From assembly GCA_002633005.1 (NCBI GenBank), contig NMRA01000771.1, positions 1-64,000 on the forward strand: DNA of 64,000 bases, given 5' to 3'. Positions 6,141-49,873 of this stretch are shown piece by piece. Positions within the stretch are counted from its first letter, which is position 1, and the number at the start of each line of letters is the position of its first letter. This DNA is from Phoronis australis (Eukaryota > Animalia > Phoronida). The position numbers and the translations under genes were made by a program. The notes beneath the pieces are model-generated. The model made no database searches, was not told where the DNA came from, and worked only from the letters and a program-made list of their open reading frames with translations.

Positions 6141-6364
6141 ACTGTGATATATATTTATTGAAGGATACACAGAACAAACAAAGAAATAATAACAAACCCA
6201 GAAACCGCGAAGCATTATATCTGGGTTGTAAACAATTCATAAATGAAACTTATATACATAGAGGTATATACAATTAAGTAGTATCTAAAATAAGTATTCC
6301 AATACTTAGACATGCTATTACAGATATATAAAAACAAAAATATGTACAGATTCACGTAGGGCAA

Positions 6365-12074: not shown

Positions 12075-12196
12075 CGTGGGTGAAGTATAAGATAACGTAA
12101 GACTTAAATACAGAGAATTAATTGAGAAATCTTCAGCACAATTTCAAACGCACATCTGGCGGGAAACAGGTCACGTGTCGGGAGGGAGTCTGGTGT

Positions 12197-12425
12197 GGCC
12201 AGTGAAGGCCAGTGGAGGCCAGTGAAAGCCTGTGGAGGACATTGGAGGCCATTGGAGGGTATTGGAGGCCATTGGAGGCCAGCGGAGGCCAACGGAGGCC
12301 AACCAGCGGAGACCAGTGGAGGCCATTGGATGCCAGTGGGGGCCAGTAGAGGCCAGAGGTGGCCAGTAGAGGCCTGTGAAAGCCCGTGGAGGCCAGTGGA
12401 GGCCAGAGGATCGATGCCAGTGGAT
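12197..12425. repeat. Right-hand remnant of the 10-bp GTGGAGGCCA satellite
   Basis: The same monomer resumes right after the LINE 5' end and stops abruptly at GCCAGTGGATCACATCCTA. Confidence 0.93.
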
Positions 12426-12826
12426 CACATCCTATATGTATGTAATTGCGCGTTATATTGCAAGTTTTCTCTTGAAAAAGAAAGTTTTAAAAGTAACGAT
12501 TTATTTCTTGAAAAGAGGTAGCAAAGATGAAAACAACGGCGTCTGAGCAGTGAACATGTAACATCTCCTGGAAATAGTTAAAAAACATCAATTTTTGGTA
12601 TTTTAATTTCCTATGAATCGGCGTCTGAGTTGTAGACGATATAGTATTCAGAAATTGAAAACTGAGAGAAAGTGTCTTATAATTAACAGTTTTGTTCCAG
12701 ATTTTACGCTTAAGGCCTGGTTGCATGTCGAGTGTTAGTTAAACTGTTGCAACTGTATTACTTAAACTATATTCGGAAAGCTTGATGATCGAACCGGCTG
12801 AAGACGTCGAGTCGACATTGACTTAC

Positions 12827-12842
12827 CTTTTGAACTTTCCAT
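12827..12842 (-). CDS. Possible tiny first coding exon (MESSK + G) of an unidentified downstream gene
   Basis: ATG GAA AGT TCA AAA G|GTAAGT is a perfect donor in a locally CpG-rich patch (12700-12960). No homology recognised. Confidence 0.25.
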
Positions 12843-12979
12843 GTCAGAGGTCGCTATTGAAGTAGTTCGGGAGGTGAATACGGAAAACTTTATTACATGA
12901 CCGTATTCCCCTCGACAGATTCAGCGCGCGTGGGATAAAAACATTTACCACCGTTATAGCTGTACTAAGCTCCATTTTT

Positions 12980-13530
12980 TGTTGTGTTTTTCTAAAGTAC
13001 CATTGATTTTACTAATAGTAAATTCTCTATTTCTACAGTTTTTCAAAACTCCAGTGACATCAGTTAGGCTACTAACGAAATTTTGTTCTGCATTCTACAT
13101 TGATAATGACATACTTTGTTATTAAAACTACAGGATTTATACTGTTGTTACATTCGGTATTTCCAAACAGAATGTCAAGGCCGTTTAAAAAATCGACCCT
13201 TAGGAAATCATCACAAACTTTCCTCCACAACTCTCTTACATAGCTACATTCCACAAATAAATGTAATATAGTCTCTTTATTATCAGAGCAAAATGTGCAT
13301 AAGTCGTCCTCTTGATCTTTAATTAACGTTAAAAGGGCATTTGTTGTGATAATACGGAGTACAATTTTGTGCTGGAAATACATTAAATATGAATCTAACG
13401 TTAAAACATACAATAATCGATAAATTTTGTACCAATCAAAGTCATCAACAGATACAGTTAATCAATGAAAAGTAGCCAGCAGATAATTAGCAATTTAGCT
13501 ATTGTAGTTTGGTCTTTTGTAAATAATGTT
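12980..13530 (-). mobile_element. L1/Tx1-like LINE 3' fragment (zf-RVT region)
   Basis: Translation FQHKIVLRIITTN...CTFCSDNKETILHLFVECSYVRELW matches the C-terminal CCHC region typical of L1/Tx1 ORF2. Boundaries approximate. Confidence 0.75.
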
Positions 13531-13842
13531 GTGGACGATTTCTTTAACCACGAACACCAAATTGAAAACGTCAACACATCTATCAGTATCAATATTTTTA
13601 ACATTAGTGTACACTCAAACTTATCCAGCGAGTAATATTAAGGGGGTAAAATGTCCCATGACTTTTGCACATGTTAAATATATGTATTATGGGTCAACAC
13701 AAGTGTTTCTGCTCTTCGTTCACTCCTGATATTAACTAATTAGGCTAATTACTATCGTACAGCTTCACCAGGAACCCCATTTAGCACCGGAAAAAACTTT
13801 TCGGTATCCCCCATTTTGTTGTATATACGTAACTGGTTAACT

Positions 13843-14046
13843 CTAGCACCCAACCCACTGAGGTTGGACCCCAAATGCAATTTTTCTTGCCACAGGCCTC
13901 TTTCTGGTTTCAATAATAATTATCTGGTCTGACCTTTTACGTCTCAGTGCGGAAATCCTTGCCGTCACTCTTGTAGGGTATCCAGAACAAGAGTCTACAG
14001 TAGCTTGCAGTACGTATTCTTCAAAACAGCCTTCGTCGAAATTCAT
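13843..14046 (-). CDS. Possible first coding exon of an unidentified gene
   Basis: AAAATG start with an upstream in-frame stop, directly downstream of a CpG/CCAAT-rich region. No recognised domain and no strong donor site. Confidence 0.2.
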   Translation of the reverse strand: MNFDEGCFEEYVLQATVDSCSGYPTRVTARISALRRKRSDQIIIIETRKRPVARKIAFGVQPQWVGC

Positions 14047-14610
14047 TTTCCTTCACCAAACTGATGTCGGAAATCAGAAGAACCGGTCGACTTGCTGGCG
14101 TACTACTTAGTTTCTATGAGTATGTTGATCAATGTAGCCTAGCAGTTTATTGGTGGCGTGTAGCTGTTTTTAGATATGGCTCAAGAACCACACGATAATA
14201 TAAGCAAGACAGCGGACGACTTGCAAGGGAGACCGGGGCACATTTGCCCGCTTTTCATGAAAATTACCATTTTCAGAAATTTGTCGGCTCTAAGTCTGTT
14301 TTGATGATTTCAACCAATCCTCGTTCTGTCACTTGCCGCCAACGCATCAGCGTCGCCTGTCTTGAACGATGTAGGGATCAACCGAAATTCGTACTTCCTA
14401 CGTCATAGATTGGATATTATGGTTGCCGAGTAATTCGCTAAACGCGTAGGTCACGTTTGCCCGTTTAGCAGACTTTGAAGTAAAGGAGTTGTCCAATTTC
14501 ACTCCAACTTGAGGGTTGAAAAATGATTGGTTTGAAAACGCTTTCGACTACTGACGTTTTGCAATACCACAAAAACAAGACTTTAGGACAGTCCCAATCC
14601 AGCTCGCAAG
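14040..14610. promoter_or_regulatory. CpG-rich, promoter-like segment with several CCAAT boxes
   Basis: Locally high CpG density. CCAAT/ATTGG occurs near 14141, 14314, 14409, 14493, 14526 and 14595. Confidence 0.4.
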
Positions 14611-14648
14611 TTCATGAACAGAAAGACGACAATCTGATTATGAAAACA

Positions 14649-14654
14649 TTTATT
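14649..14654 (-). terminator. Candidate polyadenylation signal for the distal Src isoform
   Basis: AATAAA on the minus strand followed by GT/T-rich sequence, about 3 kb after the distal stop and just before the CpG-rich segment. Another AATAAA lies at 15404-15399. Confidence 0.4.
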
Positions 14655-17644
14655 GTCACAAAGTGACCTATTTGTAGAATTAGATATACGGCACATGTAC
14701 ATAGGCACAGAGACAATAAGACATGAATTATATCAGATAAAGGTTACAAAAAATTCACTTGTTTAAAATGTGCTTTTACTGACAAACGCATTGAAATACA
14801 AACGCGCAACTGCATTCAAAACAATCAAACAATTCAAGGAACCAAAAACAGAATAAGATTACAAAACTCCAAAATCAAAAAGCTGGAATAATGACAATAA
14901 TTAAACTCAGTGGCATAACACAAAGAAATGCTAAAGAAATTAAGATGATGCAAGATGGCGAATGCCTGCATAGTAAGGTTACTAAGTTATTTCAAATCCT
15001 GCACTTCAGTGAAACTGAGCAGTAAATTCAATGCCCAGAAAGGAAAGACCTGTGCAGTCAACTGTAATAATGCTGAGATAAAATGAAATCACCACCACGG
15101 CCCTGAACTAACATTATGTCAGCTGTCGGCTTTCCATCCAATCTCCAGAATTAAATATTCTTCAACTTGAATTCCAAAAAATGAAATGCCCTTCTTGAAA
15201 AAATCCCAACGTAGGTAATGGGCTTGAATAACCCAACCAATGAAGTAATACTGACAAATGTACGATAAAGTCTCACTAATTTGGGACAAAATTACCACAT
15301 TTGAACTTATTTGGAAATCTTAAAAACATGAATGCCCACAATTTGCCAAAACACGATCTGATGGCAGCTATAGCACAGAAATTGAAAATTATAAAGCATT
15401 TATTTAGTGCAACTACGTCAACATGTCCATCATATTATGTCCTAATTTGGTGAAATTTCACCCTACTCTTAAACACCACAAAAATTTGACTCAAAACCTG
15501 CTGCTAAATAAGGATATAAATATACCATCCCCCATTCTTGGCCCAAGAGGCCTGTCGAAAAAATGCCACACCACATTTCTTAACACATGAGAGTGAAATT
15601 CGAGAGTTATTTCCCAACTTTTTTAGTGGTCACTATCTTCACCCACGCTAACTTCTCCTCAGCTCTAGAATGCTCAGCTCTTACCATCCAAACGCTACTG
15701 AATCTTCATCCTTGGCGAGAAGTCATATTTTGTCACCCAAAACTTGTAACTCTCAGTCAAGCTCAACTTGACAGACAACACTGCACTGACTTCACTTGAA
15801 ATCAACACCAGCCTATCAGTGAAAGCATGGGCCACTATAAGGTCCTGTCTCCAGAAAAGTAAAACATGACAGTTGAAGTTTGAGTTTCATCACTGCTTGA
15901 CAGAAGAGTGAAACTTCATATGTATATCACAAAAACTAATTTACAAGATTTGTAATTATAAAAATACTAAACTTGAAATGTGCACCCTGCATGTCCAACA
16001 AGTCTCATAGATAATGCACTTTCCAATTCTAAAAATAACAGAAGATTTGAGAAAATGGAAGATTTCTGTTCAAAACTCAAATAAATCTTGCAATTTATAC
16101 AGATGCAAAAATTCACACAGCAACACTTTGACACTCTCAGAGAAGCCATTTTCTACTTTTAGATGACACCTTAAATGCTTGAAATTTCAAAAATTACATG
16201 AAACGAGAAGAGTAAGTTGAAAATTAATAATCAAATAGTCAATAATCAAACCAGATAATACTTAGTAATCACACCTTAACATGTAATACTGCATTATCTG
16301 GAAACTGTTATGCCAAATGTATTTCCCAGAATCAGTGAAGGCACTGGACACATTAATTCTCAAAGTGTATCAACCTGTACCGAATGAGGTCATCTGATCT
16401 ACTCAAGTGCTTGATTTAGATCACTATTATGGTAATCACTCACATTAGAATTGATTTCTGAGCTAGAGAAAACCTGACTAACAATTTTTGTTGTCGGACA
16501 CTTAGGTCTAGGGTCAAAATCAAACTCAAAATTATTTTTGACACTTTCTGTTTTAACTTCAATCTATGAGAACTGAAGACAAGTGTCTATTGTTGTATGC
16601 TCAAGTACATAATTGTTTATGTATACGAGTTTCTAATCCAAGTTCAAACTTCATGACTACTAGATTCCAGCTACAAACTCAAGTAAAAACTTGAGATTCA
16701 GAGTTCAAACTAGAGCTTTAATGCTAGGACCATCAAGTGCAAACTGACAGACATTCTGTTTGTTCCATGCAGCTATTCTCACAAAAGAAAACAATCTGGT
16801 GGCAATGCCTGATGTTATTACAAGAGAAACTTTAACAGCAATAAACCCGCCTTGTGCGACTTTTCAGGACCATTAAGTTGGCTCCCTTAGTCAAAATGTT
16901 TTCTGGGGTTTCTAAAGAACTGACAGTTTGATATTATTGGAGATAAGGCTGTGTATGTTGACTTGTCATATTATTCAGTGAGCAAGAAAATACACTCTCA
17001 GCTCTTTGCAAGAACAAAAATCTCTTTTCATCAAAGTATGGAACAAGTCGAGATAAATTTGGTAGCAGTAAGTGGTCCAAATCAAAAGTTAGTGTCCTCG
17101 ACAGATCGCATGTTTATAACTGCTCTAAGACAAGTAATCAGGTAATGTATTAGAGATATGTTCATAACATCAAGCAGTAAAGAAGCACACATAAGAAGAC
17201 ATCTGCATCAAACATTCTGTATATGTCAGTGTATACTTTGGTATGCTATCACGATGTGTGCATAAGTGATAGAAAATATTAAGTACTTGTACAAATCAAT
17301 ATTCAGAATAAAACACGTAGTCATACATCCAAGTAATCACATGAATACGAAAAAACCTTCCAGTGCTCTCTCATTTTGAGACATATTCAACTCAAACAGA
17401 GGTCATCAAACTGAACAGGAATAGCATTAAAAGAGAAAGCGACTAATGCATTAATAACAGGAAGCTCACTATATCTGAAATCTGATGTATGATCCCAAAA
17501 GGATGCAATACCACACACTGGAATAATGTTCCTGGAAATGTCAAAGGCAAACTAAAATAGTTTTGACATGGGTATTACGAAGCATGTCAGACTACGGCAC
17601 CAAAAGCAAAAATCGTTGAATGGGAAAAGGCCTTTTTAAGAAGC

Positions 17645-17847
17645 CTAAGAAGCCTCCTTGTAACTTTGTTCCGAAGAAACAAAATAGTCGTCAAAGAAGC
17701 TGTTGAGGAACTCGAACGTTGGTCTCTCGTCCGGGTTTTTATTCCAACATTTCATCATGACCTCATAAACAGGGTCAGGACAGTCGTATGGTTTAGGTTG
17801 ACGGTACCCACGGTCCACCTGCTCCAAAACTTCACGATTCCCCATTC
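17645..17847 (-). CDS. Src-family kinase alternative last exon 10b (distal): [16 protein letters not shown]...[17 protein letters not shown]
   Basis: Strong acceptor tccttttttcaccttttcag|GA. Phase 1 is compatible with exon 9. Kinase subdomain X-XI motifs (CW, RPTF) and a tail Tyr are present. Confidence 0.9.
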
Positions 17848-18429
17848 CTGAAAAGGTGAAAAAAGGATCAACTGATGTGAAATTATAGTGAATCCCAATT
17901 TCCGCTACATCTTTCTATCAAGAACAATAGTGCGCATCTATTTCAAAACTTAAAGCAGCATTTCATCCTGTTTAGCTAGCCAAAAATGAAAAATAAATTC
18001 AACTAGACCTTTTATTCTCATATAATCGGTCTCGCATTACTCTTTATTGCGATATAATTCTATTCTGTAACCAGCAAGAAAATTGAAACCATCGTGACTA
18101 CCAAAACCATGATTTCAGAATTTCTTGGTGTTGACCAACCCTAAACTTGCAAGTGCGTTGTGCCTGTGACTTAAGTTGGCAACATAAATGTAATCCTATA
18201 ACAGCAAGTACAGTTCTTTTACCCAACACCTAACGGCAGATGAAGGTGTTGAAATTAACCAATGATGTCAAAGGTTCGAATGCAGTCTCCTCAGCAGCTC
18301 ACAACACGCTTACTGGTGTCAGCTTATCGCTTGAATTCATCGTTTTACACCAATAAATCATCAAAATTCGATGTAAAACCCTTACAAATACATCAAGTTA
18401 TTGAACAAACATGATATTTTATTTCGCTG

Positions 18430-20800
18430 TTACGTATTTTAGGTATGAAAATTCATCAAGGAACTTCAGAAAAACAGAGGAAAGGGAAAATATGAAATTG
18501 CCACTAGGGGGCACAAAGTTCGTGGGATCCCTCTGAAAGTCGTCCTCTTCCGTCATTAACTTCATATAAATACACATGCTAAATTTAATAAAGATCCTGC
18601 TGAGGGCTTAGAAGATACAGGCATAGGTACAAAAAAACATAACTCCCACTAGGAGGCGCCACAGTCAAAATTGTCGGAAAATCGTCGTCAACTGTTCTTT
18701 TTATGATAAGAACATACATGCTAAATTTCACAATCATCCTTAGAGTGCTTTGGTTGACAGAGGGACGGAGGCCAAACAACAGACTTGAAAACAGCAAATA
18801 TGGCAACTACGTGGCGCAAAATACCTTGAATCAATGCGAAAATGAATGGCTGGCGTCACCTCACTAATACAATGTAGATGCCTGTCTGCAAAATTTAATA
18901 GAAATCCATTGAGGGCCTTTGAAAACACAGAGGTAAATGTAAAAAAACTAAAATTGCCACTAGGGGGCACACCGGTAGTTCGATCTGTTTGAAAGTTGTC
19001 GTCGTCCGTTGTCAACTTCATATAAATACAACTGCTCAATTTAATAAAGATCCTGTAAAGCGTTTAGGGGATACAGCCATGGGCACAAAAACAAACAAAA
19101 CTACCAATAGGAGGCACCACAGTAGTTAAAGTTGTTGGAAAATCAGTGTAAACGGTCCTCTTCATAGTAAAAACCTACGTGTCAATTTCACAATCATCCT
19201 TAGAGTAGTTTGGTTGATAGAGGACGGACGCCAAAAAACAGACTCAAAAATAATAAAAATGGCCGCTAGATGGTACAAAATGACTCGAATCCATCCTTCA
19301 ACGGGAGGATAGCATCACCTCATAAAAAAACTAATAAAATGTGCCAAATTTCATGAAAAATGCTCGAGGACCTGTGAAGACACAGAGGCAAATGTTAAAA
19401 ACTAAAATTGCCACAAGGGGACACAGTGGTAATCGGGTTGGTCAACTCCATAGGAACACACCTGCCAAATTTCAATAAGATCCTACAAGGGATTTAAGAG
19501 ATACAGCCGCGGACGCCAGACGCCCAGACAGAGATGACGGCAATATGCAAGCAAATATTAATATGTGGGTGCATAAAAGTGGTCACTAGATGGTGCAAAA
19601 CAAGTCGAAACTATCCCAAAAAGAAACATGTCATCGTTTCTTTAAGAGAAAGCTGTTTATCAAATTTCATAAAAATCTGTCTACAAACTACAGAGAAACA
19701 GAGGGAAACGGAAAAAATGAAATTGCCACAAGCGCTGGGGGCACAGTATTCGTTGGATCCGCCTGAAAGTCATCGTTGTCTGTTGTCAGCTTTGTATAAA
19801 TACATTTGCTAAATTTAATAACGAACCTGCATTGGGTTTAGGAGATACTACCGTAAGCGCAAAAAAAATGCCACTATGAGGCGCCACTTCAGTCAAGGGA
19901 AAATCATCGCCAACCATCCTCTTCACACTAACAACATATATGCCAATTTTCACAATCATACTTAGAGTGGTTTGGTTGATAGAGGGGCGGACTCGAGGGC
20001 AGTAAAATGGCCACTAGGTGGCACATAATACCTCGAATCCATCTGAAAACCACCGGATAGTGTCATCTCACTAACTGATGAATATGTGCCAAATTTCATG
20101 AAAACCTGTTGAGGACCTTTGAAGATACGGAGGTAAACGTAAAAAGCTAAAATTGCTAATAGGGGGCACACAGGTAGTCCGATCCGTCCAAAGGTCGTCG
20201 TCCTCTGTTGTTAACTTTATACAAAAAATACACTTGCTAAATTTAGTATAGATTCTGCAGAGCATCTAGGATATACAGCCATGGGCGCAAAAGCAAACAA
20301 AACTACCTCTAGGAGGCGCCACAGTATTGAAAGTCATCGGAAATCATCGTCAACCGCCCTCTTCACAGTAAAAACCTGTTGGCCAATTTTTACCATCATC
20401 CTTACTTAGAGTGGTTTGGTTGATAGAGGGGCGGATGCCAATAAACACACTAAAAAACAATAAAAATGGCCGCTAGGTGGCGCAAAATACCTCCAATCCA
20501 TCTGAAAACAAGAAAATAGCGTCACCTCATTAATAGGTGCCTATTTTCCAAATTTTATGAGAATCTGTAAAAGACCTCTGAAGATACAGAGGTAAGCACA
20601 AAAAACTAAAATTGCCACTCAGGGGCACACCGGTAGTCGGATAAGTCCGAAATTTGACGTCAGCTTCATAGGAACACATCTGCCACATCTCATCAAGAAC
20701 CTATGAGGGATTTAGGAGATACTGCTTTGGACGCCGCATGCCCAGACAGAGATGACGGCAATATGTACCTACATGTAAACATGTGCGCGCATAAAAATTG
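18430..20800. mobile_element. Two head-to-tail HINE/DINE-1-like (non-autonomous Helentron-type) units, family A, built of about 150-bp core repeats
   Basis: Units end at about 19578 and 20797 with GGACGCC-CAGACAGAGATGACGGC, then a hairpin and GCATAAAA. The roughly 150-bp subunits each contain CCACTAG(G/A)(G/T/A)GGC. Homologous to 21330-22645 and 54984-55980. Left boundary approximate. Confidence 0.7.
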
Positions 20801-21329
20801 CCACTAGGGTGCATGCCAGTAGTCTGACCTCTTCATACTGTCCTATCCACAATAAAAATAAGAGGAATATGTCTGCAAAATTTTACAAACATCCATTCAA
20901 GTGTTTTGAATATACAACAGTGGATGTAGGATAGATAGGCAAGATTACGGGATAAAAATAATCTGGAGGTTGGTGATTCTGATTACTGTATTCGCTCTCA
21001 TAAGCACCCAAGCTCCTAAAGGCGCATTCTACAGTAACGTCTTCAATTTATCAATAACATCTGACAGTCCTGAAAAAAATCATTGCGCGCAGAATTTCTA
21101 GACCACGAGCCTCGCTGCTGTATCGGTATTTAGCCGTTACTATACACTTCAAATTTCCGCGATGCTTCAAAAAGAACGGAGAAGTTTTGCAGATCTTGCA
21201 AGGAACATGTCCCACCATGATCAGGCCTTTCAGAACAGACGCAGCGTACATGCCAACGGGATTGAATTGTATTGTATCTTTCCCGTACAGGAATCCAGAT
21301 TTCTTAGTAAACGTGAAAACCGCGAATCA

Positions 21330-22645
21330 AAGACTAATGTGCCCACGAATGCATCGCAAATGGTGTGCTTTTAGGGTTGTTTATTTATGTCATTAAAATG
21401 GCCACTAAATGGCGCAAAATACATCGAAGCCATCTGAAAACCAAAAAACTGTCATTGTTTCTTTCTTTAAAAGAAAGCCATTTACAAACTTTAATTAAAA
21501 TTCACCGAGGATCTTCAGAGAAACAGAGAAAAATAAAAAAAAACGAAATTGCCACTAGGGGGTACAGTGTTCATCGGATCAGTCTAAAGGTCGTCATCTT
21601 CTCTTGTTAACCTCATATAAATACACATGCTAAATTTAATAAAGATCCTGCAGAGGCCTTAGGAGATACAGGTAGGGGTGCAAAAAAAAAATGCCACTAG
21701 GAGGTGCCACAGTAGTCAAAGCCATCAGAAAATCATTGGCAACTGTTCCCTTCATTGAAAGTACATACATGCCAACGTTCACAATCACCCTTAGAGTGGT
21801 TTGGTTGACAGAAGGACGAACGCTACAAACCAGACTCAAAAACAACAAAAAATGGCCACTAGGTGGCGTAAAAAACCTTGAATCAATCCGAAGATGAATG
21901 GCTAGCGTCAACTCACTAATGGATGTCTATGTACCAAATTTTGCGGAAATCTGTTGAGTACCTTTGAAGATACAGCGATAAACGTAAAAAACTAAAATTG
22001 CCACTAGGGGGCACACCGGTTGACCAATCTGTCCGAAAGTCGTCATCATCTGTTTTCAACTTTATATAAATACGTTTGCAAAATTTAATAAAGATACCGT
22101 AAAGCGTTTATGAGATACAGCCATGGGCGCAAAAACAAACAAAACTGCCAATAGGAGGCGCCACAGTAGTCGAAGTCCTCGAAAAATCATCGTCCACTGT
22201 ACTCTTCATAGTAAGACCATACATGCCAATTTTCACCATCATCCTTAGAGTGGTTTGGTTGTTAGAGGGGCGGATGCCAAAAAACGACTCGAAAATAATA
22301 AAAATGGCCACTAGATGGCGCAAAATCCATCGAAGCAATCTGAAAACGGAAGGATAGCGTCAACTCATTAATAGATGCCTATGTACCAAATTTCAAGAAA
22401 ATCGGTAGAAAACCTTTGAAGATACAGTAGCAAACGTAAAAAACTAAAATTACCACTAGGGGATACAGCGGTATTCGGGTCGGTCCGAAACTCGTTACCC
22501 TCTGTCGTAGACCCCATAGGAGCACAACTGCCAAATTTCAATAGGATCCTGCAAGAGGTTTAGGAGATACAGCTGCGGACGCCGGACGCCCAGACAGATA
22601 TGACGGCAAGATGCGACCACAATATGTGGGCGCATAATAAAAAAA
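21330..22645. mobile_element. HINE/DINE-1-like element, family A, nested in the pogo-like element
   Basis: Sub-terminal ATGTGCCCAC at 21337, eight core repeats of about 150 bp, a GGACGCCGGACG microsatellite remnant, and a terminal hairpin with GTGGGCGCAT. Confidence 0.72.
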
Positions 22646-22744
22646 CTTGACCAGAAAGCGCGTGCTACATGCATGTAGGCCTAGTACTCTGGCAAATGAA
22701 CTCTGATGACACGCACACGGTCGCTCACTTGGCACACGCACGCA

Positions 22745-22747
<3 letters not shown>

Positions 22748-22779
<32 letters not shown>
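22748..22779. repeat. (CA)n microsatellite
   Basis: Direct reading. Confidence 0.95.
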
Positions 22780-22781
<2 letters not shown>

Positions 22782-23569
22782 CTTTAAAACAAATGTCGCG
22801 TGACAACGTGTGTTCATTCAGATTTGTCTTGTGTTGCGAAGTGCGATCTTGCGCAGATTTGGATTTAACCCCGACTCCACAGGAACTTAAAAATCTTAGG
22901 GACGCTATTTGGAAAACTTAAGGATTTCAAATAATTTGTTGAGTCGAAACTGTATTTTTATTCAAGAATTCAATTTGCCCTATCGACGATTGTGAGTCAT
23001 TGACGCATCAGTTGGCAAGCTTTCGCTCTGGGATTTCTGCACAATTTTCTGAAAAAGGATCATAATTTAACAACGAAGTGTGATAGCAATGCACCACAAT
23101 TTTGTGGAAAGTCTGTTGTGAGTTATAGGCATGTCACTGACCGTAAATTTGATGAATCCTAGCACCCGTTTTGGAGGCCAGGTTTCAACCGCCTCAGGTT
23201 ATACTAAGGACTCCCCTTTCGAAACGAGTTTTTTAAGTGCCTTTGGGCGCTTATAAGGGCGCATACGGTATTGCAGTTTAAATAAGGATGGTACAACAGC
23301 TATTAAACAGAAGAAACTGAAGTATATGAGGAGATCAAAAAGTTAAGAAACTAAGTGATATTACCATAGCTTGTCACAAAAATTATCACATGTTAAAGAA
23401 ATCTTAAATACCTGTGTAATCATTAGAACCTCCCAGATGCCATTTTTGATAATTAATGGTTAAACAAATTAATATTTGTCGGAGAAGTTCATTATATAAC
23501 ATTGCACACTGCCATTCCTTGACATCATGCACATGGTACTAAAAGCACATTCCAACTTAATTTACTGCA

Positions 23570-23575
23570 TTTAAT
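23570..23575 (-). terminator. Candidate variant poly(A) signal (ATTAAA) for the proximal Src isoform
   Basis: ATTAAA preceded by a U-rich tract on the minus strand, about 2.3 kb after the exon 10a stop and just before the TE cluster. Confidence 0.25.
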
Positions 23576-23647
23576 AAACAAAATAAAACATTGGTTATAA
23601 ACTAAACACAATTTTTCCGGTTTTCATGATAAAGTTGGGTATAAGCT

Positions 23648-23649
<2 letters not shown>

Positions 23650-23678
<29 letters not shown>
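23650..23678. repeat. (CA)n microsatellite
   Basis: Direct reading. Confidence 0.95.
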
Positions 23679-23682
<4 letters not shown>

Positions 23683-25901
23683 TAGTGAGTAAAAGATGTA
23701 ATATTCTACTAGATAAGTGAAAATACTTCAGTGCACACTGAAGGCAACTACAACCAGAAAACAAGAAGGTATGGGACAATACAGGACGGGGTGGCGCTGG
23801 GTAATCCTGAGACCACCCTACAACTCTGAAAACAAAGTAGAGGATGGGATGGGATTGCTGTTCCACATTTTTGTGTCTAAAAGATTCCTGTGATGACAGA
23901 CTAGTAGCTTGATAAAGCCAGTCACAGCTTGATGAGGTGAATTTCCACATTAATGATTGGCCTACAACAGAACTGCAGAGTGACAGCTCGTAGCTAAGTG
24001 TGGACACCCTGCCAGAAGTGTTGCTGCAACTTCACAGGCCTGTCCACAGAATTGTCTGCAATGTAACTGCAGCTCTCTTCAACTATGCGTTGCAGACAAA
24101 TGGCTACATGTGAGCAGGCTTTTAGGAGTTTGTAATACATATTTACGCACAAAAATATTTACTGAATTCCGTAACAGATTAGGGGTAAGTCATGAATATC
24201 ATCTAAACCACTTGTACATCAAAAGAATCAAATGCGTACCAAATCTCAAACCTAAATGCATTCATAAATAAGACAACAAAAGGGGGACAAGAAGCAAGCT
24301 ACAACAGCTACAATGTCATATGACTTCATGGGCTTCTTTGATTCGCGAACCATTCTGATCCCACAGTAAGTCCCCGGAAATATACAGAATTCTTGATGAT
24401 GGTCTGCAACCATCTACCCTGAAACATCAAAATGTCCTCAAATCCCACAAACATATTCAGAGGACTGGATTTTCAGTTCCATACCGTCCTCTGTGTTTGC
24501 ACCCACTTTTACGCTTACAACACGCTAAACCCACGCCAGACAAAAAATAATGGAAATAAATTGTTTAAACACAAATACATGACAGACTGTATGTGCGCAA
24601 ATCAAAGTAAATTAAATACTGGAATTTCATCATGCCTTGAACACTTGAGAATTTTCCTTTAGAATAATCACCGTGCAGGTTAGATTATGAGTTGAATGAG
24701 TACATCTGGTGGATGGAAAACGTTTCTTCATATCAGAAATTCTTGGAATTAATATTTCAATCAAATTCAACATGAAGAACAAATAACAACTTTGCCTCTT
24801 TCAAAAGCTGGTCACTTTCAAATACAAGGTATAAATCATAAACATTAAATGTGTGTTAAATTAGCCGCCACAGAAAACTTTTCTTTGGGCCATTAATCAA
24901 AAAAGTGACCTCAATTCACTTGTTCCTGAGAGTAGATGATCCCTTGAACTTGGGAAGAACTGAAACTTTGTTATTGTTTGAGACTATGCTTAGCTGATAG
25001 AATGGACATTACAGTAGGTACAAGTCTCAATTGTTGAGCTTGGTCTTCCGGAATTACCAATTGTGAGTTCTTCTAATGCTCAGAAATCAATTCTCATCTG
25101 AGTAAAAAACATGTTGCACAACCATAAATAACCTAAAGCAAAAGGTATTTCTTATGACAGAAGGCAGGTTGATGTCATCTTTCAAATAATGGCATTGATA
25201 GAGAAGGCACTTCTTTGGAACAAACTAAAAAATGCAAGCATTAGTTAGAGAAAGCATTGTATATTTGTCGTGAGGCACAGTGTGCAAGAGACTAATACAT
25301 GTTCTCATTATGCTTTAGCCTTTGGTTAGTCGCCCAGAAATCCAGGAAATCATGCAGAGCAATTGTAGATAGCATTCGCAACAACAGCTTTACAAAACAT
25401 TCTTCAACTCACAGTGAGTTTATCACTGGTTAGTTCTATCTTTTGAAGCACCAAGTCAGCAGGAGCTAAACGTGTGGCATGCATGTTTTATAACTGTTGC
25501 GAGTGATAATCAGCTAGCATGGCCAAGAAAAATGCAGAGCTGGAAATGGATTTCAGACTGAACGTTCAGGTCAACAGTTGGAGGTTAAAGGCAAACAAAA
25601 TCTGAAAATGAAGTGAACAGCACCAACACTACAGCAAGCGGGAATCATGTGACCCAGAACACACAGTGACATCTCTAAAATGAATGATATGAAGTGCTCA
25701 TTCCACACACATAATACACTTTTTTAACTGGTGAGCATTTGTTCAGATTACACCTTGAAGCATTATTATAAAAAATATTGAAGCTAGGTGTAAAAACTAT
25801 ATTAACACAGATCACAAACATGGTTAACATTGCGGTAATTTTGACATAAGTCACATGATTCCTGACCTAGACGCCAAACATGTCTACATTGTAAATCTAC
25901 C

Positions 25902-26104
25902 CTAGTAATCTTCTTGGTAGTTGGGCTCTGTGGCTGTGAAGTACTCGTCAAAGAAATTGAATAAGTATTCGAAGGTGGGCCTGTTGTCTGCGGTCTTGTC
26001 CCAGCACTTGAGCATGATCTCATACATGGGTTCCGGGCAGCTACTGGACCGCTGCATACGATAACCACGGTCAATTTGAGCAAGCACTTCTTGATTTGTC
26101 ATTC
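25902..26104 (-). CDS. Src-family kinase alternative last exon 10a (proximal): GMTNQEVLAQIDRGYR...FFDEYFTATEPNYQEDY*
   Basis: Acceptor ctctgtgttttgaag|GA (AAG type, weaker). Phase 1. CW and RPTF motifs and a Src-like TATEPxY tail. Confidence 0.9.
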
Positions 26105-27258
26105 CTTCAAAACACAGAGTCCAGTCACATCAGTAACAAATCAACAGGAAGAAGCAATGGTGGCCAGTCATATGACAGTGATGACCCATGTGGCACACTA
26201 ATGCTAACTGCAAAGAATTCCAGTTGGATTTACCTTTTAACAGAAAGTCAAAACCAACGCATGCGCCTCCAAGGGGATTGACGACTTGAACCCAACATAA
26301 TTATCTAACTCAGCATCAAGGGATCATCATCAAGGCAATCGTCTGACCACTAAGCTAGCTGATAGCTGCTACCTGTTTACTCATACCTATGGTAAACTGA
26401 GCTTCTGACTGCTCAAAATGTTACACAAATAAAATGAAGCTATTTCTACAACTTGTAGGATATACGTCTACTAGCAACGCTGCAATGAATAACTGGCATC
26501 CCAAAAATCCAGTTTGCTGGACATAATTAGCTTACTTCAAGATTTTTACATTCAGGTAAGAAAGACATAAAGTCCCTCTAATTGCTTTTAAAATATGTTA
26601 TCGACAGTGCTACAGAAATGAATGAGATGATTAACTTCAAACACTACTTGGAATAGTCAGAAGTTTACATGGCCTCACTCATCACTATTTTTACAGCGCT
26701 TAAGCAAAAATGCATAATCAAAACATCTTCAAAAAGTACAAGGGAGGAACAAGATGACCACTTTTAACAGAAATTCAAACACAAGTGAACTCCTAGAAAA
26801 ATTGCGTATTCACCACTTTTAAAATGTTTTCAAGACAGTGCAAAGTATAAGTGTTTTGTTAAAGTGCACCAAGGACTTTCACAAAGCATATCATATGAAC
26901 AAGAGTTTCTGAACCTAAGAGCAAGAATCAAAGATACAAACAGAAACATATACCTAGGTTTAGCATTGCAGAAAGGTAGTGTAGCAGTCTCATGCAAACA
27001 TACAGCATTATTCGTGAGATAAGATCAGTAAATGCACAATTCAGGGCACTTTAATTCAGAGCACCTTAATTCCAATCGCCTAGGGTACTGAGACCTAGCT
27101 ACTTACTGGTCATGGAAGCATTTCGTTTCGTAATAAATAATGCCAAAGCAAACATTTTCTACTGAGGTCAGACAGTGAAAACTAGCCAAGAGCAGCATCA
27201 TTTTTAAATATCTTAAAATGCAATTGGGGTGACAATGTTGTAGTTAGACTCATGTTCA

Positions 27259-27408
<150 letters not shown>

Positions 27409-28031
27409 TCAAACAAGCAAATGTGAAATTTAATTCTCTTTGACTGTCACTGCCAACAGAAATTTAAAAAGCACTTTAAAAGTTCCATAAATTTAGTTGT
27501 GTTTTTTTTAGAACATTTGGTAATGTGTTGAAAACACCATTTGCTTTAAAAGTTCCTGAAATACAATAATATACATTTTTAATGTAATTTAATTTAAGAA
27601 TAAAGTCTATATCAGAAATCACATCTTTGTTATTCTTTCACATTTTTGTAAAAAAGAGTTTTTCCAAGGTTAATTCCTATTGGCTAATGCACGTCTGACA
27701 TCACTGAGGCTGTATCGTGGGTGAAAGAAATGAGATAAATTAAGCTTATTATGTGTGTAGCTCATTGGGTAAATGCCTCTCGGCTCAGAACTATGCTTAA
27801 TGTGTAAAACACGTTTGCGATCTGGACTCTCGTTGACTATTAGTGGAACGATGTCGTTCTTGGCATCAGGCCAGGAAAGGGCCCCGACTGCATAGCCTTG
27901 CCTTGGTGCAAGCTGTATACTAAATATACAGCCGTTGAACCGACATGGGTAAAAACTGATCAAATAAAACCTGACAGAAAATTAGTAGATGTAAAAAGTC
28001 ACTTACTTAGAGACATGGTTGGTTGTTGGCA

Positions 28032-28065
28032 GATGTTTCGACCTGGTCTGCCAGGTCTTTGTCAA
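28032..28065 (-). ncRNA. Minimal hammerhead-ribozyme-like motif (U3-A8 variant) in the pLTR
   Basis: UUGACAA-A-GACCUGG-CAGA-CCAGGUC-GAAAC-AUC: a perfect 7-bp stem II followed by GAAA. Stem I is weak. Confidence 0.5.
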
Positions 28066-28298
28066 TGAATGAGGGATTTCCTGCCTTTCGTTCGTTAAGA
28101 ATGCTGGAGTACATGGGGGTAAGTGGAGTCCTCTGTCCCGGTTCAGGAGGGGGCGCTGACTGTTGATGTTTATGGCCTCTTTGAGCTTACGAGTATGCCA
28201 ATTTTGTTCCTTGGCTAGGATCCTGGATGACCCAAGAGAGATGGTGTGCCCAGTCACAAAAATATGTTCCCCCACAAAGGCGGGAAATCCCTCATTCA

Positions 28299-28332
28299 TC
28301 GACAAAGATCTGGCGGACCAGGTCGAAACGTC
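28299..28332 (+). ncRNA. Second hammerhead-like motif in the inverted pLTR
   Basis: UCGACAA-A-GAUCUGG-CGGA-CCAGGUC-GAAACGUC. Palindromic ACGU at stem III and a U4C change in the core. Confidence 0.45.
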
Positions 28333-29633
28333 TGCTAACAACCAACCACGTCTCTAAGTAAGTGACTTTTTACATCTACAATGCCTCTAGAGACCAATGA
28401 CGAACCTATTCTCCAGAACAAAATTANGCGTGGTCGCGGTATAACTTGCGCGAAAAAACCTTCCAAAGGAAAAACACGTCTTCCTCCAGAAGATAAGTCC
28501 GTGGAATGGTTCGCTTTGCGCATGTCCGTATCTCATGGTAGTACTCGGGGGAATTCTGGGAGGAATAAAATTAGTGACATTAAAAACTACACTCTTCCTA
28601 GAGTAAACTAAATTATTTACCGCTATTGAAAAAATTGGCAATCTGGCATTCTGCCGTTCACTCTGCTGCTAAAATTTGGGTGAGCTCTTTCAGGTCGGCA
28701 TTCGGCGCAGTGACCTGTTGCCTTATTAGCCAGTTTCGTTCCCCGAGTTGTTTTTCTTCCAAGTATAAGAAGTGATCGAACTAGTCTTCCAAGTTGCGTA
28801 CATGTCACAACAAATTATTAGAGCTGACTTCACTTCAAGTTTTTAGTATTTTAATACCAGGAAACCAAATTTCAGAACAAATTTTGCTCCTGCGAAGCCG
28901 TCATCATCTCCCGACAGATGTCGCAAAATTTTAGGAAATAGCGCGTGTTGAGCGTACGGTTTTCTTTGTTACAAAAGTATGAGAATTATGAGATAAAATA
29001 ACGTTTACTAGATTGTTTTTCACTTAAACGGCTCCAGCAGGCAAAGTGAGTGTCGGTTGACACCCAGCTATTTGCACGCTTCCCTGCTCGCTTATAGCTC
29101 TACACTGATGTTGATATAAGTTTCGCGAAGAGATGACAAGCAGAACTACCCGGGCTAAGTGAAATTTTAGAGTCTAACAGAGCTTAACACACAGTGCTAC
29201 TGGTACCTAGCTGTATTTTGATGATAGTCTGCATACAGCTAGCTGGTTGGCTACTGTCACAGGAAAGAAAAACGAAAAAGGTTGTGAGTATGCACATGTT
29301 GATCTGTCGACTGGACTATGTACTCGCACGGCTAATGACCTATATCTCATTGTGCTGTACAGCCTCAGTGACACCACAAAAACAGCGCTTGCAGTGGGGC
29401 TTTACTGAACTAATAAATTTTTACTTTTCAAAGTAAAGAAGAAAAATACTGTGCACTATTTAAGAATAGTATGTGGATGCCAGTAACCAACCTTTATACT
29501 TTCAAAATTCATATTAAAATGCTGAAACATGCAGTTCAGGCCTCTGTTAAGGTTAAAATCTTTTTATGATTTTTTTAACAACATAAAAGAAGCAGAAAGA
29601 GTGTCTTTAAACAAAGTCAGTTAGTTCACACTA

Positions 29634-29804
<171 letters not shown>

Positions 29805-30006
29805 CTAAAGCAAAATAAAAAGGCAAACTTTGTTAAACAAACTAGATTTATTTTACAAAGCATACATTTCAAGCTGGTAAATGAGCATTTAGTCTTACTA
29901 ACTGAAATTAACTTTAAAAAACTTGTCTGAAAACATTGCTTTGATGATCCAAAAGGCAGAAAAGCTTCTAAGTAAATACAAAATGATGCAGCTGACAAAA
30001 AATAAA

Positions 30007-32075
30007 AACGAGAGCGCTCGGAGGAGCGACACTTGGCGAAATTAACCGAAAAGACGACGATGGGGAGGACGACGACGATTATGATGATGAAAGCGGCGAT
30101 TATGAACAACACGATAATGTTCATGTGAGTAGCGAAGAAAGCAGTAAGAAATAGGCTGCAATCTTGTTCACGCACCCGGTTGCTCGGACGGCAGACGAGA
30201 GAGGTTGATAGCAAATGACAGCCACCGGTTTGCATCAAAAGTAAATAAAAACTTGGCTTTTCTCATTCAAAACACAAGTAAATCAGTTTCCTGGCATCTG
30301 CTTTCAACAAATTCCTCGAACAACAAGTCAAACTTGAAATACGCCCTGTATATGAATTGTAGGCACTAGAAAATGCCCCGTGGCCGCGACCTTACTGTTT
30401 AGTGCTACCTACAATCTTGAGCGACACTAGGCGAAATTAACGACGATCATGATTGTGATGATGAAGATGGCGATTATGAGCACCACTATAACACTCATGT
30501 GACTAGAGAAGATGTGAGAAATCAGTAAATAGGGTACAGTCTTGAGCGACATTTGGCGAACAGCAAAATCGGTCAACAAAGGAACAGCGTTTTCAGAAAC
30601 TCGAATAATTCGAAAGTATACGTCCTAGCGACAAATTGAAAATATCTTCTGAAAGTCCGTTCAAAACTCTATGTAACATGGCAGTTTTGCAATATTCCAT
30701 GAATTTTTCGAAAAAAATGAAATTTTGCGTTTTTTTTAAATTCAAAGTCAAATAACTCGAAAACGATAAGTCTGACAAAAACGTTACCTCGCAACTTTTG
30801 AAAGAGCATACTTCAAGGAGTCCACATGCAAAAATTCACATCATTTGCTCTTCCCGTTCAAAATGCGACTGCAGAACAATCGAAAATGGGTGAAAATGCG
30901 CCAGGCCGCCATCTTGAAAGTGACTTCCGGTTTAACAAAGTTTTATAAAAGCTGATCAAAAGCAACAAACACATGACCAGTTTGAAAATGATTGGTTTGC
31001 CAATGCGCCCTATACAGGAGAAAACGTTTTCGGGCAGTTATCGAGGTGCGCATGCTCCATTGCCGATATTTCCGCAATCGTTGACCGGAAGTTAAAGATT
31101 TACGGCACACTTGTAGTGCTTGTGTGCTATAATAATCATACCAATTTTCAGCCCTGCACGTCACAAAATGCGGCCTCTATGAGCAATGTCTCCATGGTCT
31201 TGTTCAACAGAAGCTAAACCAACATCAGTGCAGCAAGAGCTGTCAACAAAGGAACAGCGCTATCAGAAAAACTCGAATAATTCAAAAAGAGACGTCGTAG
31301 TGAAAAATGGAAAATATTGTCCAAAACTCTTATCTAAATTGATAGATTCGCAACATTTCATAAATTTTTTGAAAAAATTGAAATTTTGCGTTTTTTGAAA
31401 TTCAAAGTCAAATAACTCGAAAACGGTAAGTCTAAAAAATGTTACCGCAGAACTTTTGAAAGAGCATACTTCAAGGAATCCATATGCAAAAATTCACGTC
31501 ATTTGCTCTTCCCGTTAAAAATGCAACAGCAGAACGATTGAAAATGGGTGAAAATGCGCCAGAGCCGCCATCTTGAAAGTTACTTCCGGTTAAACAAAAG
31601 CTTATAAAAGCTGATCAATAGCAACAAACACGTGACCAGTTTGAAAATGATTGGTTCGCCAATGCGCCCTCTACAGGAGAAAACGTTTTCGGCCAGATAT
31701 CGAGGTGCGTATGCGCCATTGTCAATATTTCCGCCATCTTTGACCGGAAGTCAACATTTTACCACACAGTTGTAGTACATGTATTCTAAAATAATCGTAC
31801 CAACTTTCAGCCTTGTACGTCAAAAAATGCGGCCTCTATGAGCATTTGAATCTGAAACCGGAAATGAAATGGCCACCACGTCCGCCATTTTGAATCCGAT
31901 CATGACTAAAAACAATAGGCTTCCAAGACTTTCTGAACTACACGTCATGTGCAAATGTCATGCGGATCGGACGAAAATTGCGACCTGTAGAGAGAGAAGA
32001 AACAAAACAAAAAACAAAAAAACTTGATGTCAGACTAACATACTTGGCGGAATTCCCAGAATTCCACCAAGTAAT
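30007..32075. mobile_element. HINE/DINE-1-like element, family B, with two tandem 670-bp internal units
   Basis: Starts AACGAGAGCGCTCGGAGGAGCG (stem-loop) with sub-TIR ACTTGGCGAA, repeated near 30420 and 30545. Units start at 30572 and 31242. Ends in the hairpin ACTTGGCGGAATT...AATTCCACCAAGT. Confidence 0.7.
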
Positions 32076-32454
32076 TAGGAGTGATGTCACAAACTGAACT
32101 CCACTGAACTGATCCCAAAAGTGTAATGTATACCATCCATTCCACCAAATTCATCCCCTAATGGAAGTGTGAACCAAAGATAACAACTGGGTAACAACCC
32201 AATCCTACAACTGTTTCCAGAGGAAGAAAACCATTTGGTAGTAAAACGTGATGAACATGCTGCAATGATCATTAGAAGACATTCACACGATCATGTGGTT
32301 TGATCCACTGCACTGCACAGGACTGAATGACATCAATCACAACAAAAGTCGAATGCTTTCATTTTTATTTTGTGAGTTTTATGAAGTTCATTGCTTATTG
32401 AGCGGATAAAAGATGCACGTCTCAGCAGTCATTTCCCTAGTCTAGACCCCCAAT

Positions 32455-37552: not shown

Positions 37553-37865
<313 letters not shown>

Positions 37866-38700: not shown

Positions 38701-38732
38701 GCTATTGCACATTTAAGCTATGCACTTACAAT

Positions 38733-43616: not shown

Positions 43617-43781
43617 CTTTCCAGACTTCGCCAAACTGTCCAGCCCCCAACTTTTCCATCATCTTGAGAGAACTGCGCGGAATCTCCCAGTTGTCCTTTG
43701 TCTCTCTGTTCAAGTCCCACATCTGAGGTTTCATCTTAGGGCAGGCCTGAGTCAACTTGTGACAGAGGCCATCAGACGATT
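43617..43781 (-). CDS. Src-family kinase coding exon 6 (SH2 end, linker, P-loop: [10 protein letters not shown]...[24 protein letters not shown])
   Basis: tag|AA...AAAG|gtttgt; 165 nt; WEI and GxGxFG motifs. Confidence 0.96.
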
Positions 43782-45377: not shown

Positions 45378-45527
45378 CTGCATAGTGAGCAACCAGGTCT
45401 GGCAATGTGTTGAAGCGTCTCCTAGTGGTAATGTAATAACCTCCATTGTCCAAATTGCGTATCTTGTAATGTTTCACATTGTCTTTCTTCTGTTCATCGT
45501 AATCCCGCACAGACAATGAATACATGC
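45378..45527 (-). CDS. Src-family kinase coding exon 5 (SH2: [50 protein letters not shown])
   Basis: cag|GC...GCAG|gtaaga; 150 nt. Confidence 0.97.
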
Positions 45528-47624: not shown

Positions 47625-47825
<201 letters not shown>

Positions 47826-48277: not shown

Positions 48278-48376
48278 TCATAGCTATCTATGCTATCTTC
48301 CACAGCGACATAGTTCCTTGGAATGTAACCTTGTGTTTTGTTGGTCATGTGGAATGCTATCCACCAATCAGTGTCG
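48278..48376 (-). CDS. Src-family kinase coding exon 3 (SH3: SDTDWWIAFHMTNKTQGYIPRNYVAVEDSIDSY)
   Basis: cag|C...GA|gtgagt; 99 nt. WW and GYIPxNYV motifs. Not in the supplied ORF track. Confidence 0.95.
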
Positions 48377-49120: not shown

Positions 49121-49217
49121 CTTTCATCCACAATCTTCATCACATCACCCTTTTTGAAGGAAAGATCTTCGTCAGCTCTGGCATCGTAGTCATATATTGC
49201 ACGAACTGTCTTACCAT
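49121..49217 (-). CDS. Src-family kinase coding exon 2 (SH3: DGKTVRAIYDYDARADEDLSFKKGDVMKIVDE)
   Basis: tag|AT...AAG|gttaga; 97 nt. AxYDY and DLSFKKG motifs. Not in the supplied ORF track. Confidence 0.95.
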
Positions 49218-49662: not shown

Positions 49663-49873
49663 CTGGTGGAATTGCAGGGTGCTCGGCAGAGATATTCGGT
49701 GATGGCGTTGCTGGGTCTTGGACACTCAATTCTACACCCGGCATATCAACAGGACCAGGAGATAGCTGTTGAGTGTAGCGGGCATCATGCCCATTGGAGA
49801 ATTCTTGTTTCCCCTTTTCATCTGCTGCGGTATTGGGGGTAAGGCCATCGCCTTTACGTAGACAGTTACCCAT
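49663..49873 (-). CDS. Src-family kinase coding exon 1 (SH4/unique domain, MGNCLRK...HPAIPP); exon begins about 49943, so a 5' UTR exon lies further upstream
   Basis: MGNC myristoylation/palmitoylation-type N-terminus. Donor CCAG|gtaagg in phase 1 matches exon 2. Acceptor ttgacag at 49950-49944. The ten exons sum to 1587 nt = 528 aa + stop. Confidence 0.92.

What the first reader, a model, noticed from the sequence alone, without database searches (positions are those of the whole stretch)
17645..26104. Src-family kinase with two duplicated, mutually exclusive last exons that swap the C-lobe end and the inhibitory tail
Seen: after exon 9 (phase 1) there are two intact exons of identical coding length (203 nt), 8 kb apart, and I find no other kinase exon between them. 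They share only 37 of 67 residues, yet both keep GYR, CP, CW, RPTF and the tail Tyr. The tails are TATEPNYQEDY* and [11 protein letters not shown]. Established: the equivalent tail Tyr (chicken Src Y527) is phosphorylated by Csk and binds the kinase's own SH2 domain, and this exon encodes the alphaG-alphaI surface used for substrate and Csk docking. Inference: one locus makes two kinases with identical targeting and catalytic core but different autoinhibition strength and docking (pY-QED versus pY-KEA, plus an extra terminal Tyr in 10a), each with its own 3' UTR. The divergence pattern implies an old duplication under purifying selection. I know of mutually exclusive internal exons in Fyn (7A/7B) but not of duplicated terminal exons in an SFK.
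Basis: partly seen in the sequence, partly recalled or inferred. Interest (0 to 1): 0.88.

Follow-up and report, generated by a model that had tools for sequence, protein, structure and literature searches.

The report
Src kinase with swappable regulatory tail
An invertebrate Src kinase gene carries two long-diverged copies of its last coding exon, and RNA reads show both in use (the first is included or skipped), so one gene is predicted to make two kinases with different shut-off tails that likely differ in regulation; database gene models of a ribbon worm, a brachiopod, clams and oysters show the same kind of pair.

Summary
In detail: two intact 203-nt coding exons (10a, 10b; 37/67 residues identical) follow exon 9 of one Src gene, and every other SH3, SH2 and kinase exon is single-copy. 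So 10a is not a mutually exclusive last exon with its own 3' UTR. It is a stop-carrying cassette exon with a donor 1 nt after its stop codon; 10b is in both mRNAs, coding in one and untranslated in the other, as in KRAS4A/4B. Inclusion is about 33-50%. Synonymous sites are saturated (pN/pS 0.25). Gene models of 10 other lophotrochozoan species (nemertean, brachiopod, three clams, five oysters) hold isoform pairs differing only in this exon; one origin versus several is unresolved. Both tails keep the regulatory tyrosine and, with one conservative change each, the Csk docking residues; only 10a ends like the vertebrate Src PDZ ligand. Functional difference is inferred, not shown. No paper describing this was found in the open library. 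A new Src-family case of a known splicing design.

The parts
49663..49873 (-). Exon 1 coding part (ATG to phase-1 donor): N-terminus MGNC..., predicted myristoylation/palmitoylation site, unique domain
   Evidence: ORF and CAG|gtaagg donor, joins in frame; not covered by the RNA lays
49121..49217 (-). Exon 2, SH3 first half (97 nt)
   Evidence: tblastn and AG/GT flanks; not covered by the RNA lays
48278..48376 (-). Exon 3, SH3 second half (99 nt)
   Evidence: tblastn and AG/GT flanks; not covered by the RNA lays
47669..47772 (-). Exon 4, SH2 first part (104 nt)
   Evidence: tblastn; loose ends of 167 reads at exon 5 carry exon 4 letters (compared)
45378..45527 (-). Exon 5, SH2 second part (150 nt)
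   Evidence: joint 5>6 in 27/36/110 reads
43617..43781 (-). Exon 6, SH2 end, linker, Gly-rich loop (165 nt)
   Evidence: 6>7 join seen only in the contig (raw reads are cut at a short repeat beside exon 7)
37571..37830 (-). Exon 7, kinase N-lobe (260 nt)
   Evidence: joint 7>8 in 28/28/113 reads
29639..29804 (-). Exon 8, HRD, DFG and activation-loop tyrosine (166 nt), single copy
   Evidence: joint 8>9 in 13/17/104 reads; Pfam kinase
27264..27395 (-). Exon 9, last shared coding exon (132 nt), its donor chooses 10a or 10b
25901..26104 (-). Exon 10a: 204-nt cassette exon, encodes C-lobe end and tail ...EPNYQEDY*, stop codon at 25904-25902, donor 1 nt later
   Evidence: joints 9>10a 14/4/52 reads and 10a>10b 17/14/48 reads, plus one contig
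17848..25900 (-). Intron 10a-10b (8053 nt), holds a cluster of a ~450-bp repeat family at about 18.4-22.6 kb; low sense-strand depth at 23.3-25.8 kb (unspliced RNA or minor own UTR)
17645..17847 (-). Exon 10b coding part: tail ...EQSYKEAS*; translated when 10a is skipped, 3' UTR when 10a is included
   Evidence: joint 9>10b 32/14/51 reads, 10a>10b 17/14/48
14640..17644 (-). Shared 3' UTR, about 3.0 kb; AATAAA at 14654; end approximate
   Evidence: sense-strand depth 13-200 down to about 14.7 kb, contig ends at 14693; signal position

Best explanation
One lophotrochozoan Src gene includes or skips a duplicated, stop-carrying exon (10a) ahead of its last exon (10b), which is predicted to give two 528-residue kinases that share their first 461 residues, both likely still switched off by Csk, and that likely differ in tail binding and C-terminal partners. 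Shown: when 10a is included the mRNA runs 9-10a-10b-UTR and the frame stops 1 nt before the last joint; when it is skipped the mRNA runs 9-10b-UTR. Inferred: a stop this close to the last joint escapes junction-dependent decay; the weak splice sites of 10a set the 33-50% inclusion; the kept core and tail tyrosine mean both fold and are Csk substrates; the swap tunes surface properties, most plausibly the extreme C-terminus (10a ends E-D-Y, like the vertebrate Src PDZ ligand GENL; 10b ends E-A-S) and the residues after the tail tyrosine (QED versus KEA).
For: Three canonical joints, all on one strand, in 3 of 3 raw RNA runs; 9>10a plus 9>10b (103 reads) equals 8>9 (104) in the deepest run; one 4322-nt contig from a second study runs exons 5-6-7-8-9-10a-10b-UTR. 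10a donor matches the U1 consensus (recalled) at 5/9, joint lowest of the gene's 10 donors; its acceptor is AAG with 11/16 pyrimidines against 15/16 for 10b. pS 1.06 (saturated), pN 0.27, pN/pS 0.25 (bootstrap 0.18-0.35); flanks no more alike than shuffles. Of 23 columns at least 90% conserved in 21 reference tails, 10a keeps 22 and 10b 23; differences fall in variable columns (mean conservation 0.59 vs 0.88, p 1e-7). Csk docking residues Glu510/Tyr511/Asp518 (PMC10016382, passages) read E/Y/E in 10a and E/F/D in 10b. Ten other species have pairs identical up to this exon and 33-55 of 66-69 alike within it. One isoform ends in a hydrophobic residue and the other not in the window, Lingula and Lineus pairs; c-Src GENL as PDZ ligand: table row in PMC7662862.
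Against: No protein-level or biochemical data. Tyr/Phe at 511 and the tail variants also occur among relatives with one tail seen, so the differences may be mild. None of the 8 bivalve pairs shows the hydrophobic-end split (7 scored, M. angulata read). Regulated inclusion is not established: share of 9>10a differs between runs (0.30, 0.22, 0.50; p 0.015) but share of 10a>10b does not (0.35, 0.50, 0.48; p 0.24), and the samples are not described. Only 18-19% of each raw run was read. Whether the relatives also splice the first copy on to the second could not be seen (proteins only).
Confidence: 0.8

Rival explanations
1. Mutually exclusive terminal exons, each with its own poly(A) site and 3' UTR.
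For: Low sense-strand depth continues for about 2 kb behind 10a (8-17% of 10a depth) and falls near an ATTAAA at 23575.
Against: 10a>10b joint in 79 reads against 70 for 9>10a (binomial p 0.51); contig 9-10a-10b; depth behind 10a is of the same order as in intron 9.
Confidence: 0.05
2. Both isoforms are made but are functionally near-equivalent; the duplicate persists by drift or mild dosage benefit, or 10a inclusion mainly tunes mRNA level.
For: Core and docking residues kept in both; many lophotrochozoan models show one tail only (24 of 34 named species in the cluster look-ups); no motif difference is shared by all pairs.
Against: Two copies held intact through synonymous saturation; in oysters the two exon classes are each conserved across four species in the tree (99/97 and 99/92 support) while staying 13-16 residues apart.
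Confidence: 0.12
3. Artefact: assembly join of two loci, or 10b belongs to a paralogue.
For: None found; no whole genome was held to look for paralogues.
Against: Reads and a contig join both exons to this locus's exon 9 and to each other; junction counts balance; same arrangement implied in 10 other species.
Confidence: 0.01

Closest known systems
KRAS exons 4A/4B
   Same: Upstream exon carries the stop codon at its 3' end and is included or skipped; the downstream exon is in both mRNAs and untranslated when the first is included; the authors state the two are not mutually exclusive at mRNA level (PMC5945503, passages). The swap changes the regulatory C-terminus of a signalling protein.
   Different: KRAS swaps a short membrane-targeting region (recalled); here 67 residues of the folded kinase C-lobe plus the inhibitory tail are swapped.
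Tandem duplicated exon substitution, C-terminal class
   Same: Homologous tandem exons giving isoforms identical but for one region; 77 of 236 human events are C-terminal swaps (PMC9741552, passages).
   Different: The only Src-family event named in the passages seen is FYN's internal pair; a last-exon event in a Src kinase is not among them.
FYN exons 7A/7B (FynB/FynT)
   Same: Src-family kinase with duplicated alternative exons; paralogues kept one copy each (PMC9741552, PMC4494069, passages). The oyster paralogue here likewise carries only one exon class.
   Different: FYN's pair is internal, truly mutually exclusive, and covers the SH2-kinase linker and N-lobe start, not the C-lobe end and tail.
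RefSeq isoform pairs of the Src64B/SRK2-like gene in Lingula anatina, Lineus longissimus, Mercenaria, Mya, Dreissena and five oysters
   Same: Same gene group, same breakpoint right after PYP-G, both copies keep the tail tyrosine.
   Different: Automated models only; exon order and splicing route there were not visible; shared origin with the window's pair unresolved.

Membership tests
Src-family kinase (Src64B/vertebrate Src group) | N-terminal Met-Gly, SH3, SH2, tyrosine kinase domain in order | tested here: met
   MGNC start, all domains in order, open 528-aa frames; exon 1-3 joins by sequence only
Src-family kinase (Src64B/vertebrate Src group) | Activation-loop tyrosine and C-terminal regulatory tyrosine | tested here: met
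   DDEYTARQG in exon 8; tail Tyr aligned with Fyn's in both exons
Src-family kinase (Src64B/vertebrate Src group) | Groups with Src/Fyn and Src64B, apart from Src42A/Frk | tested here: met
   Inside the protostome clade (99*) sister to vertebrate Src/Fyn (95*), nearest row Lingula (85, not starred), 45 rows, quick tree
Src-family kinase (Src64B/vertebrate Src group) | Csk docking residues Glu510, Tyr511, Asp518 | tested here: inconclusive
   E/Y/E in 10a, E/F/D in 10b: one conservative change each (residues from PMC10016382; numbering by offset from the tail Tyr)
Src-family kinase (Src64B/vertebrate Src group) | Tail phosphorylated by Csk and bound by own SH2 | not testable with these tools
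   Needs biochemistry
Tandem duplicated exon substitution | Two homologous exons in tandem in one gene | tested here: met
Tandem duplicated exon substitution | Each supplies the homologous region in a different spliced isoform | tested here: met
   9>10a and 9>10b joints in 3 of 3 raw runs
Tandem duplicated exon substitution | Both proteins detected | not testable with these tools
   No proteomics available
Mutually exclusive / alternative last exons | The two exons never stand in one mRNA | tested here: not met
   10a>10b joint in 17/14/48 reads and one contig
Mutually exclusive / alternative last exons | Each has its own poly(A) site and 3' UTR | tested here: not met
   Main form shares the 10b UTR; a minor own-UTR form up to about 8-17% of 10a depth not excluded
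KRAS4A/4B-type stop-cassette design | Upstream exon holds the stop near its 3' end and is included or skipped | tested here: met
   Stop ends 1 nt before the donor; inclusion 0.33, 0.39, 0.50
KRAS4A/4B-type stop-cassette design | Downstream exon present in both mRNAs | tested here: met

The most novel reading that the evidence does not exclude
A single duplication early in lophotrochozoan history gave Src a splicing switch, kept for over half a billion years in nemerteans, brachiopods and some bivalves, that toggles the kinase's PDZ-type C-terminal ligand and the strength of its tail latch in a tissue-regulated way: a mode of Src control absent from vertebrates and flies. Imparident clams would have added a second switch on the activation-loop exon, making a combinatorial Src.
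Probability: 0.22. Interest if true: 0.75.

Novelty: new member of a known kind. Interest (0 to 1): 0.52.

Why it matters
The Src tail and the surface beside it are the textbook off-switch of the family. Here nature supplies pairs of kinases identical except for that module, in at least three lophotrochozoan phyla, which makes it directly testable how much tail sequence, Csk docking surface and C-terminal ligand each contribute to Src regulation, and whether splicing is used to tune it. It also matters for annotation: tail-specific antibodies, knock-downs aimed at 10b or the UTR (which hit both isoforms) and single-isoform kinome lists would mislead. The design itself is known, and the relatives' pairs already sit in automated gene models, which limits the surprise.

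Tried and rejected
No whole genome was held, so paralogues outside the window were not searched. The run search listed no indexed RNA holder on record ('no RNA holder listed'); the evidence comes from laying the added raw-read runs. Search with exon 10a alone gave 1 hit among 4 candidates. Alignments A1 and A2 of exon fragments were poor and not used. The representative-protein search never ran. One origin versus several: the 52-row tail tree has 69 columns and an unresolved backbone; seven AU tests rejected nothing (p 0.15-0.79) and in five the free search had missed the better tree, so they are uninformative; the quartet AU run failed on a tree-file error; fixed-topology quartets never favoured the window's two exons as sisters (5 of 5, by only 1.3-4.6 log units) but paired 10a with opposite exon classes in Mercenaria and Dreissena, so the signal is weak. 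A Gln versus Lys/Arg contrast right after the tail tyrosine appears in the window, Lineus, Mercenaria, Mya and Dreissena pairs but not in Lingula or oysters; not taken as a rule. 10a is 204 nt, so 10b lies in frame behind its stop; read-through was considered and left as a curiosity. No structure was predicted: the tool returns no coordinates for mapping surfaces. Levinson 2008 (Csk-Src complex) is not held.
Full report
Observation. On the minus strand exon 9 (27395-27264) is followed by two 203-nt coding stretches, 26104-25902 (10a) and 17847-17645 (10b), each behind an AG and open to a stop. They share 37 of 67 residues and 122 of 203 bases. Both match the end of the Pfam tyrosine kinase model at E about 1e-12 and align best to Fyn and Src among solved structures. 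tblastn of the window with one nematode Src and 11 lophotrochozoan Src proteins found one copy of each other SH3, SH2 and kinase exon and two of the last. Exons 1-9 joined to either copy give open frames of 528 residues starting MGNC.

Splicing. Three stranded raw RNA runs (18-19% of each read, one study) and one contig set (second study) were laid on 13000-28400 and 25700-45650. Joints with canonical ends, all on one strand: 9>10a in 14, 4 and 52 reads; 9>10b in 32, 14 and 51; and 10a>10b (25901 to 17847) in 17, 14 and 48. Upstream joints: 8>9 13/17/104, 7>8 28/28/113, 5>6 27/36/110. In the deepest run the two uses of the exon 9 donor sum to 103 against 104 for 8>9; in the two shallower runs the match is looser (46 vs 13, 18 vs 17). 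One 4322-nt contig runs exons 5-6-7-8-9-10a-10b and 3 kb of UTR to 14693, with no differing letter in exons 9 and 10a. So 10a is a 204-nt cassette whose donor lies 1 nt after its TAG, and 10b is in both mRNAs. Totals for 9>10a (70) and 10a>10b (79) do not differ (p 0.51), inclusion is 0.33, 0.39 and 0.50. Sense-strand depth behind 10a is 8-17% of 10a's depth and of the same order as intron 9, so a minor own-UTR form is possible but not the main one. Between-run differences are significant at one joint (p 0.015) and not at the other (p 0.24); regulation is not shown. The 10a donor (5/9 to a recalled U1 consensus) and acceptor (AAG, 11/16 pyrimidines) are weaker than exon 9's donor (9/9) and 10b's acceptor (15/16), which fits partial inclusion (inference). 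A stop 1 nt before the last joint should escape junction-dependent decay (50-55 nt rule recalled; PMC13247117, passages, places the junction complex 25 nt upstream of the joint); the near-equal read counts fit this.

Age and selection. Over 66 codons pS is 1.06 (saturated), pN 0.27, pN/pS 0.25 (bootstrap 0.18-0.35); third positions agree in 22 of 66; 300 nt upstream and 600 nt downstream of the copies align no better than shuffles. Against 21 reference tails, 10a keeps 22 and 10b 23 of the 23 columns that are at least 90% conserved, and the 28 differing columns among the first 64 are the variable ones (p 1e-7).

Relatives. The closest proteins are lophotrochozoan. A 45-row quick tree of the shared core puts the gene in the Src64B/vertebrate Src group, nearest Lingula (support 85, not starred). 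Thirty clusters were looked up (at most 15 members listed per cluster). By my count from those tables, 10 of 34 named lophotrochozoan species have isoforms that are identical up to PYP and differ only in the last exon: Lineus longissimus (33/69 alike), Lingula anatina (42/69), Mercenaria mercenaria (46/67), Mya arenaria (48/67), Dreissena polymorpha (43/66), Magallana gigas and M. angulata (55/68), Crassostrea virginica (53/68), Ostrea edulis (54/68), Saccostrea cucullata (53/68). One tail only was seen in five Mytilus species, four scallops, two unionids, eleven gastropods (Pomacea, four Haliotis, Gigantopelta, two Patella, Lottia, Littorina, Batillaria), Saccostrea echinata and Owenia, and in the chelicerate and coral clusters; five further named species were single-member clusters. 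These blanks depend on gene models and are not evidence of absence. In the 52-row tail tree exon classes group across species within oysters (99/97, 99/92), within imparident clams (92/93, 98/91) and within nemerteans, but the backbone is open. AU tests were uninformative and quartets weak and partly contradictory. One ancient duplication and several independent ones both remain.

What the swap may change. The tail tyrosine binds the SH2 domain once phosphorylated by Csk (PMC3492796, passages). Csk recognises Src through Glu510, Tyr511 and Asp518 rather than the residues around the tyrosine (PMC10016382, passages); all three lie in the swapped exon and read E/Y/E in 10a and E/F/D in 10b, and Phe at 511 is common in relatives. 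So both isoforms are likely Csk substrates and a large docking difference is not indicated. After the tyrosine the copies read QED and KEA. The extreme end differs more sharply: 10a ends E-D-Y, matching the acidic-x-hydrophobic end of the three vertebrate, three chelicerate and several single-tail lophotrochozoan rows, while 10b ends E-A-S. c-Src's GENL is listed as a PDZ-binding motif (PMC7662862, table row). The same one-with, one-without split is seen in Lingula (DDY/DND) and Lineus (VGF/TIT) but in none of the bivalve pairs. I take partner binding at the C-terminus and tail-latch strength as the likeliest differences; both are untested.

Comparison with what is known. The splicing route is that of KRAS4A/4B, where the included exon holds the stop and the next exon stays untranslated (PMC5945503, passages). 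C-terminal swaps are 77 of 236 human tandem duplicated exon events, and the Src-family case named is FYN's internal pair (PMC9741552, passages; PMC4494069, passages). Five searches aimed at this feature listed no paper describing a duplicated last exon in a Src kinase; the oyster kinome paper has no occurrence of 'alternative splicing' (PMC4883820, passages). The library lacks most subscription papers, no supplement was read, and supplementary event lists of PMC9741552 could bear on this claim. Earlier notes of this scan held no look-alike and one analogous aPKC case (unchecked).

Verdict. Real, expressed and shared with other lophotrochozoans; mechanism corrected from mutually exclusive last exons to a stop-carrying cassette with a shared 3' UTR. 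Known design, new family instance, already implicit in automated annotations, function unproven. Interest 0.52.

Noticed in passing
Proteins P0039/P0148 (Mercenaria), P0164/P0241/P0243/P0244 (Mya), P0167/P0251/P0253 (Dreissena); equivalent of window 29639-29804: In these clams the exon that carries HRD, DFG and the activation-loop tyrosine also comes in alternative homologous versions (2, 4 and 3 seen), combined with the two tails; the window has one copy. Possibly more striking than the finding itself.
   Followed up: partly
Proteins P0291, P0065 (oyster paralogue) and P0020, P0269, P0004: The second oyster Src gene carries a tail nested in one exon class (99/97), while Mytilus, Pecten and Pinctada models group with the other class (88/93): looks like separation or loss of isoforms.
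   Followed up: partly
window 2-6138 and 12197-12410: 6.1-kb satellite of a 10-bp unit (613 copies) with a short second array.
   Followed up: no
window about 6160-10210 and 32450-37015: Two inverted copies, about 92% alike, of a degraded LINE-like element; endonuclease domain PF14529 at 33331-33915.
   Followed up: partly
window about 11500-14100, minus strand: Fragments of another retroelement downstream of the gene; zf-RVT PF13966 at 13075-13461.
   Followed up: partly
window 18400-22600 and 55060-55800: Dispersed and tandem copies of a ~450-bp repeat family, most of them in the 10a-10b intron; reads laid there mostly run on unlike the window, so they likely come from other copies.
   Followed up: no
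window 59908-60152: 24-bp minisatellite, about 10 copies.
   Followed up: no
window 25901-25904 joined to 17847: 10a is 204 nt, so in the 10a mRNA the 10b frame continues in phase directly behind the stop codon; read-through would give a doubled C-terminus. No evidence that it happens.
   Followed up: no
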